Shown: positions 33,504-53,593 of the stretch, in pieces
Numbering within the stretch: position 1 is the first letter of the stretch
How the letters are laid out: every line of letters starts with the position of its first letter
NCBI RefSeq assembly: GCF_009914755.1
Contig: NC_060933.1
Length of the DNA: 64,000 bases
DNA from: the human T2T-CHM13v2.0 reference genome, Homo sapiens
Direction: 5' to 3' (one strand)
Program-made: the position numbers and the translations under genes
The notes under the pieces: generated by a model
Database searches by the model: none
What the model saw: only the letters and a program-made list of their open reading frames with translations
Told to the model about the DNA's origin: nothing

Positions 33504-34622
33504 TGATGGGGTCAAGGAGATCAGGGAGGAGGTGGGTATGGTGGCCCAGGTGACCGCTGAGGGTGGCTGAACTGGGACTCGCTTTGGAGGTGAGACTGGG
33601 GCTCAGGAGTGTAGTCCTGGCAGCTGGGGCCATAGTGGGCTGAGGTTGTCTGGGAGAACGTGTGGAGGGATGGTCTTCAGGGAAGACGGAGGTGGTTCAG
33701 CCAGGACAGAGAAGGAAAGGGGGGCTATTGCAGAGAGTTAGGGGGCAGCATCTGTAGAAGGATGACTCTGACCTTTGGGGAGCTGGGGCCTGTCAGGCAG
33801 GAGTTGGGGGTTCAGAAGTCTGCCCCTGCCTTGGGTACACGCAGATGCACAGACACAGGACCCCGGTGAGCCCAGGGAGCTCCACCGCCAACACTGAACG
33901 TCCCTGCCCCCTCTGGAATGCCTGCGACACCTCCCTCACACCCGCCCGCATTCCTGCTGGGGCACACTGCCTCCTCCCCCTGGCAGGCTCCTGGGCACAG
34001 GCTCCTCCACCAGGGGAAAGAGATGGTGGTCACCTCTTCCCCTCTCTCACTCGCCTGAAGATGGTGGGACTCAGTGTCCCCCAGCCCTGGATGGCTGACA
34101 CTCCTGGGGGTCCCGAAGGCCCATCCACTGCCTCCATGGGCCGAGGTTCCCCAAGTCCTGCTCCAAGAGCCATGGCCTCCTGGGTACCTGGCACACAGTG
34201 GGCCCACACAGCACGTCTGGCCTCTGGGAAGCATTTGCTCTGCATTTTGTTTTTTCCTTGCCACAGCCCCATGAGGCAGGGGTTTAAAACCCCATCTTAC
34301 AGCTGAGAGGATGAGGGGGTGTCATCCCCCAGGTTCACCACTATCAGCGGGAACCCGGCTCCTCTCCCAGTTGAGCTCACTGTTGGGTGACAGGGAGGGC
34401 AGACCTCTGAGGTCAGAGCCAGGGAGGGGGGACCCCAGCTGCAGGGCTGGGCTCTTTGCCCATCCTCCCTCCCTTTAGGCCATGCTGGGCATGGGGGAGG
34501 CCAGTGCCTGGCATTCCTGAGCAGGCTCCGAAGGAGGCAGCTGGGCCAGGCAGGGAGCTCTGCCCCCTCCCCACTTCCCCAGCCTCAGTGCCCGCCCACC
34601 ACTCTCAACCTGTCTAGAGGGC

Positions 34623-34680
34623 ATGGCAATGGAGCCGGGGGCTCTGTGGACCTTCCTGGGCCACCTGTGGCTCCTGGCAG
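34623..34680 (+). CDS. CRB2: Putative CRB2 alternative first coding exon (MAMEPGALWTFLGHLWLLA-G) in intron 6
   Basis: gggcATGG strong Kozak; hydrophobic 19-mer; CAG|GTATGG donor, phase 1, matching the exon 7 acceptor. Confidence 0.75.
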
Positions 34681-35795
34681 GTATGGAGGAATGTGGGCCC
34701 TGGGCAGGGGGAGGTTGGTGGGTGGTGGTTCCTAGGAAGAGGCTGTGGTGTTTGTGAGCTGATCGAGGCTGGGCTTCAAACCCTGGTGACTTCTCTGGGC
34801 CTGGGTTCCTCCAGCTGGGATGTGGCTCTGGCTGAGCTACAGTGGGCTATGGCTTCTGGACCCAAGCTGGGGCCTGAGCACCTGAAGGGATCCCTAGAGG
34901 GAGGATGAGGCAGCCCCTTCACAGCCAGTGTGGGGGCCCTGGGGCAGAGGGACTGAGGGGTTAGAGCCTGGGAGGCCACTCAGAGTGCCTTGGGTACTTG
35001 CACTACCCCACTAGCTCCTCCATGCCATCACTCTGTCCATAAAAGCCATGTCAGGCCCTTTGCTGGGCACCAAGGACATATTCAGGTCCCTGAAGATCTC
35101 AGCTGAGTAAACAAATACTTTTAATACAGGGTTCTGGGGAGCTGTGCCTGGGACTGCAGAGTGACACAGTAGTTTGAGGTTGGGAGTTAGGGAAAGCCTC
35201 TGGGCCCTTTGAGTTTGGGCTTTGCAGGATGAGTAGGAGTTTGAAAGGAAGGGTAAGGGTGAATGAGGCATTCCAAGCAGACAGAACAGTATGAGCAAAG
35301 CCCCAGAGTCACGACTTTCCAGGAAATGCTCGGAGGAATGGGACGTTCAAGATTTGTGGGAAGCAGGATTGAGGCTTGAGAGCCTGGTAGGACCCAGCCC
35401 ATGAGGGTGTCTTAAATGTCAGGGTGAGTGATTGGACTTCAGGCGGCAGAGGAACCCAGCCTGGCGATGCTTTAGAAATGGACCTCTGGCTACTGGTGGA
35501 GATGGATGGGAGAGGGCTTCTGAAGGCTGGCGAACTGGGGGATGCGGGATGGTAGCCCAGACAGCTGGTAAGGCAGGAGATGGGGGGTAGGAGAAAGGGG
35601 CATTGGAGAATGTTTAGGAGATTAAATCTACAGGGCCTGGACACTCACCAGACATGAGAAGGGAAGGGGCATCTTGGCTTCTGGCCTACGGGGGGACTTG
35701 AGGGGACCATGAGAAATCCTCTGGGAATTGGTTTGGCTGATAGGTACTGAGGTCCCCATCATAAGAGGCATGTAAGTTCTGGGTCAGTACTGTGA

Positions 35796-37387
<1,592 letters not shown>

Positions 37388-37799
37388 TAGTGTGTCCTTT
37401 TGCTGATGAGGAAACTGAGGCTCAGGAGGTGAAGTGACCTGCCCAGGGTCCCACTACAGGAGGGTGGCAGGGCAGATTTACATCTGTCTCTTCAGCCCAG
37501 CTGCTCCTACCCTCTGGCGGTCCCCGTGTCTCCCCGAGCTAGTCCTGGTGTGAGAGAGACACCCTGACCGAGATAGAGAGCTGCCTGAGCCTTTCTGCAG
37601 GAGCTACTTGGGGAGCGGGACACGCTTTTGATCATGAACAGAATTCCACCAACCCTGGAGTTAGAACAGCTTGGGCATGAATTCTGGTTCCTCTCTTTAC
37701 TGGCTGGGTGACTCAGGCAAGTGGCTTTGCATCACTGAGCCTCAGTTTTCTCATCTGTAAAATGGGGATCTTAGCGACTTCCTCTCCCCTCGTTTGTGA

Positions 37800-38483
<684 letters not shown>

Positions 38484-38740
38484 TGACCAGATCTGCATTT
38501 TACAAAGATGACTGGCTGCAGTGAAGGGCAAGCCTCGGCCATGAGGTGGGGCAGCTTCACGGAGAAGGGAAGGGGCCAGATTCTGCCAGGAGTTGCTGTT
38601 GCCTGGCTTGTGACCTGGAGGGTCGCCTAGGCATCACGCCCCACCCCCCAGCACTGGCCGGGAACTGCTCCTCCATGGGTAGGAAATACATTGGGAGTAG
38701 AAGTGAGGGTGGTGGGGGCGGCTGCAGTTTCCAGGATTAG

Positions 38741-39793
<1,053 letters not shown>

Positions 39794-40312
39794 TAATTTG
39801 ATAAATTTCCTGATAAAATACAGATCAAAACACAACCAGTTAGCCTGGAATTTCAGATAAACAGCGCTGTGGTCTGGGGCTGGGAGCCGCCTGCCGCTTA
39901 CACGGAGGTTCATCCCTATTGGTGGCTGGTTGGGGTGGAGGGAGGGGGTCAGGCTTTGGCGCTTCCCTTATTCATCTGGCAGTGGCTCTCCCGGGAGCCC
40001 AGCGTGTGGAAGGGGATCTGGCTGTGGCCTGACCCCTCCCTCTCCCCTCAAGGAATGTCCAGGCGTTGTGTTTAGGAGCTGCTTTTGTTCAGAGTCCTTA
40101 CACTTTGTTGTCCTGAGTCCTCTGAGACTCTGGAAAGCGAGTGCAACCCTGTGTCCCTTCCCTCCCATCAGGGACCTCAATCCCATGCCCAATAGAGGAA
40201 GGCCCTGAGTTCCATACATGAGAACACAAGCTCAGGTGGCCCACGGTCACAGCGCTGGGGAGGGCAGGTCCCAGGTGTCCTGCACCCACTCCAGCCTCTG
40301 CTCTCTCCCCAG

Positions 40313-40429
40313 GTTGCCTGTCCCATCCAAGGAGTGCAGCCTGAATGTCACCTGCCTCGATGGCAGCCCATGTGAGGGTGGCTCTCCCGCTGCCAACTGC
40401 AGCTGCCTGGAGGGTCTTGCTGGCCAGAG
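40313..40429 (+). CDS. CRB2: CRB2 exon 11 (EGF)
   Basis: ctccccag / AG|GTGGGT; 117 nt. Confidence 0.95.
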
Positions 40430-40867
40430 GTGGGTCTGGGGGCCTGGGAACTGTGAGGAGGTCCAATGAATGTGGAGGGCTGTTCCTCCAGCCAGGGTGG
40501 GGCGGGGGTCCTCGCCCACCTTCTCACCCCTCCCTGGTATCACAGTCACCATTGTCACTTGAGTTTCCTTCCATGACTCGCAAGACCATCCTCTGTGATA
40601 CAGACTGCTGCTGGGCAGTGGTTGCCTGGTGGCAGTTCTGGAAACCCAGCCTCAGCCCGCCTGTGGGAGACCATAAAAGTGCAGATTCTGGGCCCTGCAG
40701 ACAGTGGCGTCAGCGTCTGGGGCACCTGCCTTCACACAGGCTCCCGTCACCCTAATGGGATGAGAGTCCTTCTCAGTGACGGCTGCTCAGGTGGTCACCT
40801 GGCAGGGCCCAGCTGGGCAGGAGCAGCGCATGGGGACAGTGGATGGATAAGCTCTGATGCTTGCTGA

Positions 40868-41287
<420 letters not shown>

Positions 41288-42547
41288 TGACAAGAGCACA
41301 AAGCTCCTAGCTGGGTCAGCGGCTTCCTCAGAGTGCCCAGGGCAGTGGCAGTGAGGACAGATGGTCTCTGCCAATCCAACCAGGACTCAGGGCCATGTTG
41401 GTGTTCTGGGATTTAGGTTGGTGAATCCAGGAGACTCATCTCCAGGGGTTTCTGAGCCAGTGTCCTGAGTAGGAAGACACGGAGGGGCAGGGGGCCTGGG
41501 AGTCCGCACTGGAGCAGGCTCGGCCCGCTGTGCAGGCTGGCCCCAACCCCGGGTGGCTCAGCCCAGGAGGAGCCTGGACAGACGAAGGCAGCAGGCGCTG
41601 GAGCTGTGAACCTCCCCGCCACACCCCTTCCTGGGGCGGGGTGGGGGGAGTGGGTGCTGGCGAGGAGAGGCTTGGAAGGGAAGTCTGGGGAGCAGCCTTG
41701 ATCTCCACAGGCTTCTGGCAGCCTGGGTCATAAACCACAAATCCCCTCCGCTTACGGGGAATGTTTCCTTTCAAGTTGAACTTTTACAGCCTCTGGCTTC
41801 CCTACCCAGCCACCTCCCCAGGGCAGGGGGAGGAAATGGCTTTACAGCTCCTCCCTCAAAATGTCCAACGGTGGAGGCTGGCAGGACCCTCTCAGGACCA
41901 GAGGAACTTTCCTGTCAAGTTTTAGGACCCAGGTCACAGTGGGCTGGGAAGCCTGGAGGTACAGAGGGAGGCTGGTGAGTCCCAGAGCCCATGCCTCTGG
42001 AATCCTCGCATCCTGGGACTACAGAGTCCCAGGCATGTAGAGGCTTTGATGGGGAATCCTGGGAGCCTGTGACTGGAGACACCAGGGAGGTTTGCTGGGC
42101 TCCCCGAAGCCTGGGCCGAGGCTCGCAGGGACAAGCTGTCATAACAGCCCCTCGGCCCCCCTGCCACCCTGCCCCCGCAGGTGGGCCCCAGTGGATTCTG
42201 ACCTTGCTATTGTGGCAGGGGGCCGCTCAGCCTGCCCCTGCTCCTGCTCTGCCTCATGAGACCCTCGTAGGCTTCTGTGAAACCCATGCACCCTGCTTAG
42301 CTCCTGCCGGGTGTTCAATAAACGCCCATCTCTGTCCTTCTAGCCAGAACTCCTTTGTTGTATAGGCCTCCCCGAGCAGTGGCTGTGACAGGTGGTTTCC
42401 TGGCACTTGCCTGCACACCCCTGGGGCTGGGTCTTCACTGCTCCCAGGGCAGCCTGCTCCCAGCTCTGATTTTCTCTGAGTAGGTCCTTGTGCTGCGCTC
42501 TCTGCTCTCTGAGGGCCCCAGCGTCCTCCCCTTCTCTGCGGTCTTAG

Positions 42548-42796
<249 letters not shown>

Positions 42797-44531
42797 GCCA
42801 GCCTGGCTGCTGGCACCAGCACCTGGAGGTCCTGAATGGTTTCTACCTGGAGACCCAAGGAAGCTGCTTCCAGGGCTCGGGACATTGCTACGGAAGTGTC
42901 CCCTTGGCTGGCAGCCTCTGCCTCTGCCTCTGCCCCATCCTGGATGGAGGACGAGGGGAGCAACTCAGGGAAACAGAGGCCTAGAGAGGCTGCGGACTTC
43001 TCCATCCCACCCTCGGGGTTCCGCCTTGGCAGGTGTACGGCTGTGCGTGGGAGGGCACACGTGGGTTCACAGTGTGTTCAGGAGTGTGTGTATCTGGAGG
43101 AGTGTGTGTGTGAGTGTGTACCTGGGCCTGTGTTAGTCTGCAGATGCTAGTGTGAGTGTGTCCTGACATGGCTCCAGGGCGTGTCTGCCGTGTTTACTGT
43201 GTGTCTATGACTGTGATGGGTGTAGCTGATCCCAGGAGGTGGCGGCTGCGCCATGGGGTCAACCATTACAGTCCTAGGGCAGGGGCGGCCCAAGGCTGCA
43301 TGTTCTCCAGGAGGCCAGGCCGGGGTTGCCCAGGCACCTCCTTCCCCGCCTCTGGGGGCTGCTCCTGCTGTGGAGGCAGCTGGGAAGTCAGGGAAGGCCA
43401 CTAGCAGAGGCTGAGTGGGCTTCTGGCTCCTAGAACAAATGTCCCTTCAGGCAGGTCTGTCTGCCAGAAGCCAGAGCCAGTCATGCGAGGGAACCACAGA
43501 CCCACCCGCCCCCTCAGCCGGAGCAGCCCGAGGGAGCAGAGGAGGGGCTGCCTGGAGCTTCCCACCCTGCTGTGGTCATTTGTCAAAGGGGGAAGGCACC
43601 CACTGCCTACCTCACAGGGCTGTTGTGAGGATCAGAGAGGACGACAGTGGGGAAAGAATCTGGAAGTCTTCAACTGCCGTCTGATGGGAAGGACCGTCTG
43701 GGTGTCCTTCTGGGATGAGGATGACAGAGCAACCCTTCTCCTGCCCTGAACCCCCCCAGCTCACCTGACCACCTCTGGTTCTCCAGCTCCGGTCCTTCCT
43801 AGCAGCCTGGTGAGCTCACTCCTTCCCCTGATGACTGGCTGCCTCTACACAGACTCGGCGAGAGGACTTGAAGGAAGCCCTCTGGGTTGTCTGCTGAGTA
43901 CAGGGGCTCAGTGAACACTGGCGCTGCCTCTGAGTCGGGGCTGGGCCTGCAGAGGCCGACTCAGAGGAGACTCTGCTGCTTGCTCCCAGCCCCTTCCCCG
44001 GCGATGCCCATCACACTGTGACCTCCCATCCCTGAAGGGCACCTGCCTGAGGGCCTGGCCTCCTTCCAGCTTCATGGACCTGGAGATGTGCCCTTTCATC
44101 CTTCCTGCTTCCCAGGCCAGTAGATCCGTTTACACTTTTGGGTCGACAGTCAGCTTTTCCTTTTGGTTTTGGCGGGTCCCAGAGGCATGGGTGTCCAGTC
44201 CAATGTGGGGAGCCACGTGACAACGTGGGGGACTGGGACATGGGACTGGGAAGTCAGCAGACGCTGGGATAGAGAGGGCCCTGAACACCAGGCTCAGGGG
44301 CTTGCTTGGTCCTTATCCTGTAGGAGGTGGGACCACCTTTCCCTGAACTTTCTCTACAACCCTTGGGAGCGTGGGGAGGAGGCGGCTGGTTCCAGGGTCA
44401 GTTTACTAAGTTAGAGATTTGGAAAACCTGTGTCAGCTGTAACTCCTAGGATATTTTATGTGGAACCTAACATGCAGATGAAAGCTGGCTGTCCCCTGTC
44501 CTCTTCCTGGCTCCTGTGGGTTCGGGTGCCT

Positions 44532-44532
<1 letters not shown>

Positions 44533-44570
<38 letters not shown>

Positions 44571-44841
44571 AGATGGAGTCTAGTTCTGTCACCCAGGCTG
44601 GAGTGCAGTGGCGAGATCTCGGCTCACTGCAACCTCCGCCTCCCAGGTTCAAGCAATTCCCTGCCTCAGCCTCTGGAGTAGCTGGGATTACAGGTGCCTG
44701 CTTTTAGTAGAGACGGGGCTTCACCATCTTGGCCAGGCTGGTCTTGAACTCCTGACCGACCTCGTGATCCACCTGCCCCGGCCTCCCAAAATGTTGGGAT
44801 TATAGGTGTGGGATGACAGGTGTGAGCCACCGCGCCCGGCC
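44533..44841 (-). mobile_element. Alu (S-like, internal deletion) with a 37-nt T tract
   Basis: T37 at 44533-44569 plus Alu consensus. Confidence 0.92.
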
Positions 44842-45404
44842 CGCGTGCCTGTCGTTTTCAGCCTGTCAGTCAGTCCTGCAAGTGGGGGCATGGTCAGATG
44901 ATGGGCGAGTCGGAGGGGGTGGGTGGTGTGACTGGGCATGTTCCACGCTCACTATGGGGTGGTCGATTGGTCTGCATTCCCCCGCCCGCCTCCCCGCAAA
45001 CACCAGCGTCCAACAGAGGCAGAGTCCCAGGCTCTGTTCTTGCTAATGAGAGACCTGTGGGGGCGACTTGCCAGGTGTCCCCTTGAACTCTTTCCTGGCT
45101 CCTGGGTGCCCTCAACGTCGTTGGAGGCCTGCAGTCTGCCCCATGGCCCCCGCAGGGCTGAGCAGGCCTGTTGCCAGCCCAACCCCGTGCCTGGTCTGTG
45201 AGGGGCAGAGCATGAGCTGGCTTAGAGCCCTGAGTGGGCACCGGCTTGGGAGGGTGCGGGGAGTTGACTCCTTCCCTAACTGCTCTGCGCCTGGCCCCTG
45301 CCTCTACAGGAGCAGGTGGTGAGGATGGCTCCGGGCCCGTGTGGGGCCTCCCCGACCCAAAAGCTTCAAGGACACGGGGATGCCAGCCTCTTCCCCAAGA
45401 TGAT

Positions 45405-45410
45405 TTTATT
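45405..45410 (-). terminator. DENND1A: DENND1A polyadenylation signal AATAAA
   Basis: TTTATT on + strand, about 1.75 kb past the DENND1A stop. Confidence 0.8.
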
Positions 45411-46041
45411 GAATGCACACAAAGTTCATCCTTGGGTTTGCAAAAAGTCCCACAAGTGAAGAGGCAGCAGTGCTCATGTGAACATGGAGCGCTCACCCCA
45501 GCCCCTCAGCACAGCCAGGGGGCCTTGGGGTACACACCCTCCTTCCCTGGGGCCGCCAGCACCTCCTCTGCCCTATCCCGGATGGGGCCTGGGGGTCTGC
45601 CCAGGGTGCGAAACTGGAATCTATGCTGAAACACCTAAGTGCCCAGGAGGTGCCCCCATGGCCCAGGAGTGACACGGCTCCCCCAGCAGCCAGAGCCCAT
45701 TCCTGAGCCAGACAGGTCACGGTTGACCCAGGAAGAGCCATGTGCCAGGATGGCCGCCAAGCCTCACTGAGCATGTGCAGCAGTGGCAGCCTCTCAGACA
45801 TAGAGGGGGCTCCCTGGGTGACATCTCCAGAGACCCCCTTGTCCCCCAGACACCCCTGGGTAGACTGTGTCTGACCCTTCACAAATAGGAAATGAGAGCT
45901 CGGGTCGAAATGCTCACAATTTCCTGCGTGTCTCAGATGGTTGTTTTCTTAAATGGTCGGGCCATACTTTAACTTGGTTTATGGAAATGAATCCATTTCA
46001 AGATTCATCAAATCAATAAGGTAAAAAGGAAAAAGAAAGAT

Positions 46042-46047
46042 AATAAA
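46042..46047 (+). terminator. CRB2: Candidate distal CRB2 polyadenylation signal AATAAA
   Basis: first canonical hexamer found by eye on + after the CRB2 stop; GU-rich tttggtgacgttgg downstream. Confidence 0.6.
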
Positions 46048-47164
46048 CATTCAATCTAACTTTGGTGACGTTGGCCTCAGGAATTTCTGTGCTGGCCTGG
46101 AGCTCTGGGCAGGTGGGGAGGGACTGGCTTCTAGCCCTCCTCCTGCTTCCCCGAGGCAGAGACCAAGTTTGTCCTTTCTACCTGGCCCTGGAGAAGGGGC
46201 TCAGGGCCACTGCCTCGTTCCAACCCAGGAAGGCCAGCTGCCTTCCACATCAGTCTGAGGCATTCAGCTTGACCTTTTTGGGTTGAAATCTGGGTTGCAG
46301 CTTCTCAGCTTTGCCCACAAAGCTCCAGATGACAAGAGGCTGAGCCCCAGCTTTGACAGTGAGGGGAGTACCTGGAGGTATCAGCGTGCCAGAGCTGGAT
46401 GAGGGCTGGGGGCTCCTCCCAAAATACTCAGATGGGGGTTTCCATTTTCCTTCTATAAATCAAAGTTGCTGGTGCTCGCAGCCCCCGTGCAGGGTGGCTG
46501 GGGCTGTGTATCACAAGGCAGCCCAAGACCCCCTGGTCCCCAGATCCTCCCAGGTCAGAATCAACTGAAGTTTTGGGGTGAAGACACAGGAAAGAACGTG
46601 TGTGTATATTGCTAGAAACAGTCTGGAAGTGCCCCACCAGGTAAATCCTCCAGCCCAGGAGGAGTCCTAACTTCAACCCCAAGCTACCTGTGTCTCGTGC
46701 AGATGAGCTCAAACTGGAGGGTAACCCTGTCACCTGTGTCCGAGGAGGTGGGCGTGCAGGGCCTGGCTGTGGAGGAGACAGGAGAGCTGGGCTCGGAGGG
46801 GAGGCCTTCGGAGCCTCTTGGGACACTTCCGGGGGAAGGTGGGTAGGACTCGGTCTGGAGCAATATCATTGGCCCAGCTGACCTCTTTAGTGCAAAACCC
46901 AATCAAGGGTGCCGAGGAGAGGCAACCGCGGGGTGGGATGGGCACTCAGGAACTGGGTTGATTCCCAGGCTGGAACTGGTGCCATTCCCCAGGGCCAGAC
47001 ATCAGAGATGGGCAGTGTGGAGGGGAGGAGGGGGCAGCAGAGAGGGGTCCCATCCCTTCCCACCAGCAGAACCTGGGCAGAGAGAGAGTGGCGGGGGAGC
47101 CTCGGAACCGCAGCAGTGGACGGACCCTCGGGCCTCGGTGCATCCCCCACCCTCAGGGCCCGGC

Positions 47165-48358
47165 TCACTCGAAGGTCTCCCACTGCTTCCTGAGCTGCTC
47201 CACCGAGTCTGGGGCCGGGGCCAGGGCCGGACTCGGGCTCACGTCTTGCTTGGTTTTCTGTAACAAATCCTCAAAGGGGTCTCTGGCCTGTTGAGGAGCA
47301 GAGGGCTGCAGTGTTGGCTCCAGGCCTTGAGGGGGCCTGGGAGGCAGAAGCGGGGGGTCTCCAGGCCTCAGGGCCAGCCCCTGCTTGGTCTCAGCAGCCC
47401 TGGCACTTGAGCGGGCCAGGGGCAACGTTCGGATCCTCGACGGGGCAACTGCTGGGGGACCCAGCGGCTGTAGGGGGCTCGTGTGGGTGCCCATGGGCAT
47501 CTGGCCAAAGAGGTTGGGCATGGAGAGGGCGGAGAGGTTGGGCTGAGACCTGTGAGGGGCACAGAAGCCAGCACTGGACAGCAGGAGGCCGGACGCAAAA
47601 GCCGGCCCCAGGGAAGCTGGAGGGGCCCCGAAAGGCCCGGCTGGTGTGGAGACCAGGGGCAGGGTGGGTGGGGCTGCTGGCATGGATGGGACAAAGGGGT
47701 TGAGTGGTGGCTGTGGGAATGGGGTGGGTGTCCCTGCAGGGGGGAAGCTGAATTGGGGGGTGAATGGGGTGGCTACATTCGGGGTGGCGGGGCGTGACGG
47801 GAGGGTGCTGCCTGACCAGGCTGTGCTGAGCGGGTCCAGGAGGGCGAGCAGGGCGTCACTGCTCGTGCCTGCAGCCCCGGGGCCAGGGCTGAGCGGCTGG
47901 AGCAGTTCAGTGGGGCCTTGGGGGACAACACCAGGCAGGAGCCCTGGACTCAGGGCAGCTCGCCTGTCCCGATCCGTCTGCAGCCGCTCTGAGACGTCAC
48001 CAAGTGCGGCGCCGGCAGCCTGGAGCTTGGCCGGGCGGGGAATGGGCGGTGGAGGCACGATGCCCAGCTCTGGGGTCTTCCTGCCTTGGGGCCGGGGGAT
48101 GGTGATGCTGCCCAGAGTAGGGGTGGGCACCTCCTCCTTGTCACTGGGGTTCAGGATGCTGTCCCGGTTCTGGGGCCTTCGAGGCAGGGCCAGGGAGTTC
48201 CCGAGCAGGGCCGAGGGCTTCTCAGGGGAGGCAGCTGGGGGCTTGCTGGGGATGGCCATGTCGTCCTGGCCCAGGCTCCAGAGCTTGTTGTACGGGTGGG
48301 TAAGCTTCAAGGCCACTGTCACCCCGCGGCTCCTCTCACTCCCGCCCAGATCCAGCCT
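47165..48358 (-). CDS. DENND1A: DENND1A last coding exon (Pro-rich tail; NPF, DPF and terminal WETFE motifs)
   Basis: acceptor cccaacag|AGGCTG on minus strand; 1194 nt to TGA; ...DPFEDLL...QWETFE* typical of connecdenn-1. Confidence 0.95.
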   Translation of the reverse strand, partial: RLDLGGSERSRGVTVALKLTHPYNKLWSLGQDDMAIPSKPPAASPEKPSALLGNSLALPRRPQNRDSILNPSDKEEVPTPTLGSITIPRPQGRKTPELGIVPPPPIPRPAKLQAAGAALGDVSERLQTDRDRRAALSPGLLPGVVPQGPTELLQPLSPGPGAAGTSSDALLALLDPLSTAWSGSTLPSRPATPNVATPFTPQFSFPPAGTPTPFPQPPLNPFVPSMPAAPPTLPLVSTPAGPFGAPPASLGPAFASGLLLSSAGFCAPHRSQPNLSALSMPNLFGQMPMGTHTSPLQPLGPPAVAPSRIRTLPLARSSARAAETKQGLALRPGDPPLLPPRPPQGLEPTLQPSAPQQARDPFEDLLQKTKQDVSPSPALAPAPDSVEQLRKQWETFE

Positions 48359-53464: not shown

Positions 53465-53593
53465 CATTCAAAGGGAGCGGAGAAGAAAAAGCTCTCGGTG
53501 AAGCCAGAGCTCGGGCCCTCTTCCCGCTGGCATTCATCATCAGAGGAGTCTTCGGAGAGGAAGACCGCATAGTGTCGCAAGGGCTTTACCAGG
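53465..53593 (-). CDS. DENND1A: DENND1A frame-preserving exon (LVKPLRHYAVFLSEDSSDDECQREEGPSSGFTESFFFSAPFEW), probably a cassette
   Basis: long pyrimidine tract plus cag acceptor; 129 nt, phase 2-2, in frame with the next exon; donor TG|GTCTCT is weak, so the 3' boundary is less certain. Confidence 0.75.

What the first reader, a model, noticed from the sequence alone, without database searches (positions are those of the whole stretch)
43805..46070. Probable 3'UTR intron plus distal poly(A) site make CRB2 overlap DENND1A tail-to-tail by ~0.67 kb
Seen: no AATAAA/ATTAAA found by eye on + between the CRB2 stop (42796) and 46042, while the DENND1A signal is at 45405-45410 (-). Use of 46042 would give antisense overlap at about 45390-46065. 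Just before the overlap is a textbook + strand acceptor: branch point CCCTAAC (45274-45280), pyrimidine-rich tract and CAG at 45307-45309. Candidate donors are CTG|GTGAGC (43810) and AGT|GTGAGT (43152). Inference: splicing would remove the Alu/T37 and create a junction far downstream of the stop (NMD-sensitive). The terminal exon would be largely complementary to DENND1A mRNA, allowing mutual regulation by dsRNA or Pol II collision.
Basis: partly seen in the sequence, partly recalled or inferred. Interest (0 to 1): 0.7.

Follow-up and report, generated by a model that had tools for sequence, protein, structure and literature searches.

The report
Known CRB2–DENND1A tail overlap, unproven intron
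A longer, already annotated version of the human CRB2 messenger RNA overlaps the end of the neighbouring DENND1A gene by 669 bases, an ordinary arrangement, and the splice signal just before the overlap looks unusually good but is likely little used.

Summary
The tail-to-tail overlap (45391-46059, 669 nt) is real but not new. RefSeq already ends one CRB2 transcript at 46059, behind the only AATAAA. A 2011 figure legend states that the two genes overlap at their 3' ends in human and mouse. The selected CRB2 mRNA stops at 44487, at a hexamer-less site 903 nt short of DENND1A, so the overlap likely belongs to a minor read-through form.

The acceptor at 45309 is unannotated and better than chance. 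Only 2 of 150 strong acceptor-like sites in 528 kb also have a CTAAC branch point, and the other is a real DENND1A acceptor. However, the proposed donors are at chance density, no junction evidence was found, and the full-length mouse isoform has an unspliced 2.4-kb 3'UTR. RefSeq's own 3'UTR junction (43409/45696) has very poor splice sites and is likely a cDNA artefact.

If 45309 is used, exon 12 is the likelier partner. That would give an NMD-free, secreted CRB2 with a 49-residue tail, whose reading frame is not kept in the one comparable orthologous record. Mutual regulation of the two genes is untested.

The parts
42572..44487 (+). CRB2 exon 13 of the selected transcript (coding to 42796, 3'UTR 1691 nt)
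   Evidence: gene table; CDS translates to 1285 aa ending ERLI; UTR length
44388..44533 (+). Proximal, hexamer-less poly(A) region: AT-rich upstream with one TGTA at -50, annotated end 44487, A-free GU/CU-rich 50 nt downstream
   Evidence: GC 0.40 in 44401-44600; function of the elements inferred
44523..44858 (-). Antisense Alu with 37-nt tail (T37 on + at 44533-44569, 46 nt after the proximal end) and a 17-nt target-site-like direct repeat at 44523-44539 / 44842-44858
   Evidence: D7; SRP-like matches; the name Alu is by recognition
41075..41083 (+). Real exon-12 donor (phase 0); candidate partner of the 45309 acceptor
   Evidence: gene table; (score 7.3)
42728..42736 (+). Weak phase-0 GT inside exon 13 coding sequence, one codon before the position of the CRB3B donor
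   Evidence: score 5.6; sites this good occur at 4-12 per kb
43149..43157 (+).
43807..43815 (+).
43410..45695 (+). Gap implied by the annotated exons 42572-43409 and 45696-46059: GC donor with 3 of 9 consensus matches, GAG acceptor without pyrimidine tract, 5-nt repeat CAGAG at both ends; likely a cDNA template-switch artefact
   Evidence: donor -6.2, acceptor -4.5; that the two exons belong to one transcript is inferred
45274..45280 (+). Consensus branch-point motif CCCTAAC, branch A at 45279
45281..45309 (+). Pyrimidine-rich tract and CAG of an unannotated, strong-looking acceptor (44-nt AG-free zone); predicted to be largely paired with the G-rich stretch just upstream
45310..45459 (+). 49-codon open frame in phase 0 behind the acceptor (P0001); frame not kept in orthologous record P0122
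45405..45410 (-). DENND1A poly(A) signal AATAAA; annotated end 45391
   Evidence: gene table
45391..46059 (.). Sense-antisense overlap of the long CRB2 end with the last 669 of 1774 nt of the DENND1A 3'UTR (only 364 nt exonic if the annotated 45696 exon start is real)
   Evidence: gene table
46042..46059 (+). Distal CRB2 poly(A) signal AATAAA (46042-46047) and annotated end 46059, lying antisense to a U-rich patch of the DENND1A 3'UTR
   Evidence: gene table

Best explanation
CRB2 has two annotated 3' ends, the selected one at 44487 that stops 903 nt short of DENND1A and a distal one at 46059 that overlaps the DENND1A 3'UTR by 669 nt, and the long form likely arises when polymerase reads through the weak, hexamer-less proximal site to the next AATAAA. 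This is tandem alternative polyadenylation in a convergent gene pair. The long form is likely minor and mostly unspliced. The proximal site is predicted to rely on its upstream TGTA/U-rich and downstream GU/U-rich sequence, possibly helped by the T37 tail of an inserted antisense Alu. The acceptor at 45309 is likely a cryptic site used at most at trace level. The annotated 43409/45696 junction is likely a reverse-transcription artefact. Shown: the motifs, both annotated ends, the overlap. Inferred: relative use of the two ends, the Alu's role, non-use of 45309, the artefact.
For: Both ends are in the RefSeq table. 46059 has canonical spacing and no A-rich downstream run. If NM_173689.7 is the MANE transcript (recalled; the table says only 'selected'), its end was set from poly(A)-seq clusters (PMC9007741 passages). 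The 44487 context has TGTA at -50, 0% A in the next 50 nt and T37 at +46, matching the element classes listed in PMC6169888 (passage). The overlap is stated for human and mouse (about 100 bp) in PMC3100342. Mouse long-read isoform PB.4154.1 is 6405 nt, 1282 aa and 13 exons, so its 3'UTR is about 2430 nt and unspliced. The human stop-to-DENND1A distance minus the Alu is 2275 nt, which fits an unspliced UTR running just into Dennd1a. 0 of 9 listed mouse isoforms have 14 exons. Donors are at chance density. The candidate's pyrimidine tract is the least accessible of 16 acceptors in two fold windows (0.16-0.18 unpaired vs 0.22-0.88). 118 of 120 listed CRB2 homologues end in ERLI.
Against: The 45309 acceptor outscores all 15 real acceptors' leave-one-out scores, including exon 13's own (4.0). 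Its only equal with CTAAC in 528 kb is a real acceptor. With AATAAA 46042 it would form a tidy 750-nt terminal exon. The branch consensus appears retained in orthologous record P0122, and the 3 differing codons in the tract need only pyrimidine swaps. The masking hairpin is no more stable than shuffles (z -0.47). For the artefact call: a 5-nt total repeat is also found at 3 of 12 real CRB2 introns, and no special stem joins the ends (rank 59-95 of 240). No human 3'-seq or junction data were seen. The mouse set is only 38 reads, and 13 exons or fewer does not exclude exon skipping plus a UTR intron. The published '~100 bp' does not match 669 nt in human.
Confidence: 0.68

Rival explanations
1. 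One reading: a regulated 3'UTR intron (donor 43810, 43152 or the Alu donor 44820, acceptor 45309) removes the proximal poly(A) site or the Alu, forces use of 46059 and exposes CRB2 mRNA to NMD.
For: Acceptor quality. The donors resemble real CRB2 donors (scores 8.7, 8.7, 9.9). Junctions would lie 355 nt or more past the stop. 3'UTR introns are widespread (PMC13223760 abstract).
Against: Donor density equals background. Not annotated. No CRB2 hit in 13 of 34 supplementary files of a 3'UTR-splicing survey. The mouse full-length UTR is unspliced. Pure 3'UTR introns are not predominantly NMD-sensitising.
Confidence: 0.12
2. 45310-46059 is an alternative last exon joined to the real exon-12 donor, skipping exon 13. 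It would give a 1260-aa secreted CRB2 ectodomain without transmembrane segment, not subject to NMD.
For: Exon 12 ends in phase 0 and the frame stays open for 49 codons. The acceptor is much stronger than exon 13's (9.6 vs 4.0). Read-through transcripts usually splice from the penultimate exon (recalled). CRB1 has a validated isoform lacking transmembrane and intracellular domains (PMC5380682).
Against: No predicted protein of 87-2000 aa shares three 5-mers with the tail, in a database that holds 367 exon-13 matches; 90% clustering could hide such an isoform. Two frame changes in record P0122 break the tail's frame. Another frame is open for 106 codons, so 49 is unremarkable. Exon 13's acceptor and the proximal poly(A) site are transcribed first.
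Confidence: 0.09
3. A CRB3B-like switch: a donor inside exon 13 (42731) joins 45310, keeps the transmembrane and FERM-binding parts and replaces the ERLI PDZ motif by the 49-aa tail (1313 aa).
For: Phase 0 and open frame. In CRB3 the donor and acceptor that give the CLPI tail were located in L023, one codon from the CRB2 GT. CRB3B biology as described in PMC4668553 and PMC7456964.
Against: The donor is weak (5.6, C at +5), as good as 4-12 sites per kb. It is one codon off the CRB3 position, and the GT is explained by a valine conserved in 120 of 120 homologues. No C-terminal CRB2 variant is in the review table or among the 120 listed homologues (118 ERLI, 1 ERFI, 1 divergent unnamed record).
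Confidence: 0.03
4. The annotated 43409/45696 junction is a real minor GC-AG intron, so the long form is an NMD-prone spliced RNA overlapping DENND1A by only 364 nt.
For: It is in RefSeq. It has GC-AG dinucleotides. A 5-nt repeat also occurs at 3 of 12 real CRB2 introns. It lies 613 nt past the stop.
Against: The donor matches consensus at 3 of 9 positions (score -6.2, still -0.8 if read as GT). The acceptor scores -4.5, is GAG, has no tract and has AGs directly upstream. These are the marks reported for RT artefacts (PMC8240250).
Confidence: 0.08

Closest known systems
Convergent (tail-to-tail) overlapping protein-coding gene pairs / cis natural antisense transcripts
   Same: Opposite strands, shared 3'UTR sequence, each gene with its own AATAAA. 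2,980 human genes are in convergent or divergent paired overlaps (PMC6746723 passage). This very pair is mentioned in PMC3100342.
   Different: In human only the distal CRB2 end overlaps; the selected end does not. No regulatory effect is shown for this pair.
Tandem 3'UTR alternative polyadenylation with weak proximal and canonical distal site
   Same: Proximal end without hexamer but with U-rich surroundings; distal end with AATAAA and GU-rich downstream (pattern as in PMC6169888 passages).
   Different: The hexamer-less proximal site is the selected end. An Alu T-tail lies 46 nt behind it; its contribution is untested.
3'UTR introns (e3UI; CTNNB1, HRAS, Arc)
   Same: Strong acceptor and donor-like sites wholly within a long 3'UTR.
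   Different: No junction evidence here. Donors are at chance level. The mouse UTR is unspliced.
Falsitrons / RT template-switch gaps (PMC8240250)
   Same: Annotated gap 43410-45695: GC-AG ends, repeat of 4 nt or more, no U1 match, no pyrimidine tract.
   Different: 2.3 kb long (reported median 353 nt). No flanking stem found. No direct-RNA comparison available.
CRB3A/CRB3B tail switch and the CRB1 1376-aa secreted isoform
   Same: Paralogues change or drop the cytoplasmic tail by splicing at the last exon. CRB2 has the phase-0 sites to do likewise.
   Different: Those isoforms are validated; the CRB2 versions are hypothetical. The donor is weak and one codon off, and the tail frame is not conserved in P0122.

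Membership tests
Convergent overlapping gene pair | Annotated 3' ends cross on opposite strands | tested here: met
   CRB2 to 46059 (+), DENND1A from 45391 (-): 669 nt (gene table)
Convergent overlapping gene pair | Genuine poly(A) signal and no internal priming at both ends | tested here: met
   AATAAA at 46042 (+) and 45405 (-); 2 A in the next 20 nt at both ends
Regulatory cis-antisense pair | Co-expression in the same cells | tested here: inconclusive
   Both genes in E11.5 mouse fore-, mid- and hindbrain by whole-mount in situ; CRB2 absent in three cell lines used to study DENND1A; tissue level only
Regulatory cis-antisense pair | Duplex formation or interference changes partner expression | not testable with these tools
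   needs perturbation or dsRNA mapping
Spliceosomal 3'UTR intron ending at 45309 | Branch point, pyrimidine tract, YAG | tested here: met
Spliceosomal 3'UTR intron ending at 45309 | A donor better than background | tested here: not met
   1.21/kb vs 0.61-1.72/kb
Spliceosomal 3'UTR intron ending at 45309 | Junction seen in transcripts | not testable with these tools
   No read data. Absent from the RefSeq table and from the supplements searched.
Spliceosomal 3'UTR intron ending at 45309 | Conservation of the splice signals | tested here: inconclusive
   One unnamed record (P0122), read only through its translation: branch consensus implied, AG on an unreadable wobble base. Mouse full-length isoform unspliced.
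NMD-regulated isoform | Junction more than 55 nt after the stop and UPF1 sensitivity | tested here: inconclusive
   Distance met for all UTR donors. UPF1 response untestable. The rule is unreliable for pure 3'UTR introns.
Falsitron (gap 43410-45695) | Splice dinucleotides without U1 match or pyrimidine tract | tested here: met
Falsitron (gap 43410-45695) | Direct repeat of 4 nt or more at the ends | tested here: met
   5 nt; not discriminating, 3 of 12 real introns reach 5 and 4 of 12 reach 4
Falsitron (gap 43410-45695) | Stable stem bringing the repeats together | tested here: not met
   duplex rank 59-95 of 240
Falsitron (gap 43410-45695) | Present in cDNA, absent in direct RNA reads | not testable with these tools
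   no read data
CRB3B-type tail switch | Donor at the homologous codon boundary | tested here: not met
   CRB3 after Tyr+7, CRB2 after Tyr+6
CRB3B-type tail switch | Alternative tail conserved in mammals | tested here: not met
   frame changes in P0122; no longer protein carries the tail (weak evidence)

The most novel reading that the evidence does not exclude
45310-46059 is a hidden alternative last exon of human CRB2. Spliced from exon 12 it makes a secreted, NMD-free 1260-aa ectodomain; spliced from 42731 it makes a CRB3B-like membrane form without the ERLI motif. The same choice makes the mRNA antisense to 669 nt of DENND1A, so protein isoform and antisense overlap switch together, while the RefSeq junction in this UTR is an artefact.
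Probability: 0.1. Interest if true: 0.6.

Novelty: already known. Interest (0 to 1): 0.2.

Why it matters
As it stands this is an ordinary convergent overlap. It matters mainly for read assignment (unstranded RNA-seq and 3' tags in 45391-46059 can be given to the wrong gene) and for cleaning up a doubtful RefSeq junction. If the acceptor were used with exon 12 or 42731, CRB2 would have an undescribed secreted or PDZ-less isoform. CRB2 is a kidney and retina disease gene and a gene-therapy cargo, and such an isoform could compete with the full-length polarity protein.

Tried and rejected
- Repeat or duplicated origin of the acceptor region: single match in the genome.
- Structured RNA in 42500-47400: only Alu-derived SRP-like and mir-3135 matches, all below gathering score.
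- Internal priming at 46059 or 44487: rejected.
- A near-AATAAA on + at 45391-45560 that would give a ~100-nt human overlap: none within one mismatch.
- Stem joining the annotated gap's ends: not found.
- Hairpin over the branch point: predicted but no more stable than shuffles.
- Exact homology of the 42731 GT with the CRB3B donor: one codon off.
- Literature: 16 papers hold both gene names. I read passages of 3; one mentions the overlap. Searches for CRB2 UTR, polyadenylation, long-read or C-terminal variants and for recalled accession numbers gave nothing on this 3' end.
- Supplements without CRB2 rows: PMC9203280 (13 of 34 files), PMC6746723 (1 file), PMC6169888 (11 of 16 files), PMC7335077 file 6 (only 4.0 million of about 8.0 million characters held). 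The PMC13223760 supplement was unreadable. The 2005 CRB2 cloning paper was not held. These unseen files could hold the decisive junction or poly(A) rows.
- A GC-matched genomic background beyond 80 kb was not obtained; a Markov model stood in.
Full report
1. Observation. Between the CRB2 stop at 42796 and 46042 there is no AATAAA or ATTAAA on the + strand. DENND1A's AATAAA is at 45405-45410 on the - strand. The RefSeq table supplied with the finding already lists CRB2 exons 42572-43409 and 45696-46059 in non-selected transcripts and a DENND1A end at 45391. The genes therefore overlap by 669 nt by annotation, 38% of the DENND1A 3'UTR. A figure legend in PMC3100342 (passages seen) says Crb2 and Dennd1a overlap by about 100 bp at their 3' ends in human and mouse. 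The overlap is thus known; the printed length does not match the human 669 nt.

2. The two CRB2 ends. The distal end is a normal poly(A) site: AATAAA ends 12 nt before 46059, the next 50 nt are GU-rich and only 2 of the next 20 are A. It lies antisense to a U-rich patch of the DENND1A UTR, so the hexamer may be a by-product of that patch (inference). The selected end at 44487 has no hexamer within one mismatch of AATAAA in the preceding 60 nt. It does have TGTA at -50, a local AT-rich island, an A-free GU/CU-rich 50 nt downstream, and the T37 tail of an antisense Alu starting at +46. MANE 3' ends were computed from poly(A)-seq clusters (PMC9007741, passages); that this transcript is MANE is recalled. 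I infer that most CRB2 mRNA ends at 44487, 903 nt short of DENND1A, and that a minority reads through to 46059.

3. Mouse. Supplementary Data 1 of PMC7335077 lists 9 Crb2 long-read isoforms (38 reads, 90% of the gene's reads) with 10-13 exons and none with 14 (sequences cut at 400 letters). The full-length one is 6405 nt, 1282 aa and 13 exons. With a 5'UTR of about 127 nt, counted by eye from the printed row, the 3'UTR is about 2430 nt. Human stop to DENND1A end is 2594 nt, or 2275 nt without the Alu. The lengths fit an unspliced mouse UTR that runs 100-150 nt into Dennd1a. This is length arithmetic, not an alignment.

4. The acceptor at 45309. A simple model from the window's 15 annotated acceptors scores it 9.6; their leave-one-out scores run from 1.05 to 9.44, and exon 13's is 4.0. 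It has a 44-nt AG-free zone and CTAAC at -30, which 1 of the 15 real sites has. In 528 kb of strand sequence (window and 200 kb of flank, both strands) 150 AG sites reach the real median and 35 reach the candidate's score. Only 2 of the 150 have CTAAC: the candidate and the real DENND1A acceptor at 53593. The criteria are post hoc and the model is small, so this is moderate evidence. Against use, its pyrimidine tract is predicted to be the least accessible of 16 acceptors, though the hairpin is no stronger than shuffles. The region is single-copy. An unnamed protein record, P0122, is a chance translation of the orthologous DNA. 20 of 23 codons over 45240-45308 and 13 of 18 over 45309-45362 give the same residue. 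The residues over the branch point imply that the yUnAy consensus is kept, the three differences in the tract need only pyrimidine exchanges, and the AG depends on a wobble base that cannot be read. Conservation is inconclusive.

5. Donors. The two proposed donors score 8.7 and an Alu-derived one at 44820 scores 9.9. Three such sites in 2474 nt equal the background of 0.61-1.72 per kb. No junction at 45310 is annotated. No CRB2 row was found in 13 of 34 supplementary files of PMC9203280. PMC13223760 (abstract and one results section seen, supplement unreadable) reports that introns wholly within 3'UTRs are not predominantly NMD-sensitising, which weakens the NMD inference even if splicing occurs.

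6. RefSeq's own junction. The gap 43410-45695 starts with GC and matches the donor consensus at 3 of 9 positions. It ends in GAG with no pyrimidine tract and AGs directly upstream (scores -6.2 and -4.5) and carries CAGAG at both ends. PMC8240250 (passages) describes this combination for reverse-transcription artefacts, and notes that about 25% of annotated introns also have such repeats. Here 3 of 12 real CRB2 introns have a 5-nt total repeat, and no stem joins the ends. I rate an artefact at roughly two in three. The poly(A) end of that transcript is unaffected; the original RNA would have been unspliced and overlapped DENND1A by the full 669 nt.

7. Coding alternatives. Exon 12 ends in phase 0 and the frame behind 45310 is open for 49 codons (P0001). 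An exon 12-45310 join would give a 1260-aa protein without transmembrane segment and with its stop in the last exon. A weak phase-0 GT at 42731 would give 1313 aa with the FERM motif kept and ERLI lost. The CRB3 locus (L023) shows the donor and acceptor of the CLPI isoform, one codon from that GT. CRB3B and the secreted CRB1 isoform are described in PMC4668553, PMC7456964 and PMC5380682 (passages, and one section of the last), whose table lists no C-terminal CRB2 variant. No protein of 87-2000 aa carries the tail, although the database holds 367 matches to exon 13. 118 of the 120 listed end in ERLI (247 were not listed, and 90% clustering can hide isoforms). The two short hits to the tail are unnamed chance ORFs without CRB2 exon sequence in front. 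P0122 changes frame twice within the tail. These isoforms remain possible but unlikely to be conserved functions.

8. Regulation. Both genes are expressed in E11.5 mouse brain. CRB2 was not expressed in three cell lines used to study DENND1A (PMC12361435, passage). Convergent overlaps are common and showed the lowest share of associated expression among overlap types (76%; PMC6746723, passages). With main ends 903 nt apart, nascent transcripts would overlap whichever site is used (inference). Nothing here shows dsRNA or collision effects. The other papers opened added nothing on this 3' end: the RADIS preprint (passages), PMC13562739 (passages), PMC11129452 (passages) and PMC6169888 (passages; 11 of 16 supplements).

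9. Verdict. The intron is unproven. What is worth keeping is a better-than-chance orphan acceptor and a doubtful annotated junction, both settled by one junction-database query. Interest 0.2; novel case 10% likely, 0.6 if true.

Noticed in passing
window 42317-42322 (+): AATAAA inside CRB2 intron 12, 255 nt before exon 13, with no A-rich run behind it. Read-through of exon 12 gives 70 residues and a stop. Possible intronic polyadenylation giving a secreted CRB2, like the CRB1 1376-aa isoform.
   Followed up: partly
window 44523-44858: Antisense Alu with T37 tail and 17-nt target-site-like repeat, inserted 36-46 nt behind the hexamer-less selected end of CRB2. It may have strengthened that site and shortened the primate 3'UTR relative to mouse.
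   Followed up: partly
window 34513-46059 (+): Joining the annotated alternative first exon 34513-34680 to exons 7-12 and the two alternative 3' exons gives 3949 nt with a 953-aa ORF ending in ERLI. That these exons form one cDNA-based model is my inference.
   Followed up: partly
window 45382-45444: The stretch around the DENND1A poly(A) signal gives 21 of 21 identical residues in record P0122, more conserved than its flanks, as expected for the DENND1A 3' end.
   Followed up: no
window 43071-43215 (+): GT-rich repeat-like stretch in the CRB2 3'UTR with several donor-like GTGTGT/GTGAGT words; a possible UG-binding-protein site.
   Followed up: no
window 43330-43555: 55-nt imperfect inverted repeat (73% complementary) spanning the annotated exon end at 43409 (I1); not tested against shuffles.
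   Followed up: no
L023 (G000:C19:6454456-6457656): CRB3 last exon with the internal donor and downstream acceptor that give the CLPI isoform; AT-rich 3' end followed by an opposite-strand AATAAA, suggesting another tight convergent junction.
   Followed up: no
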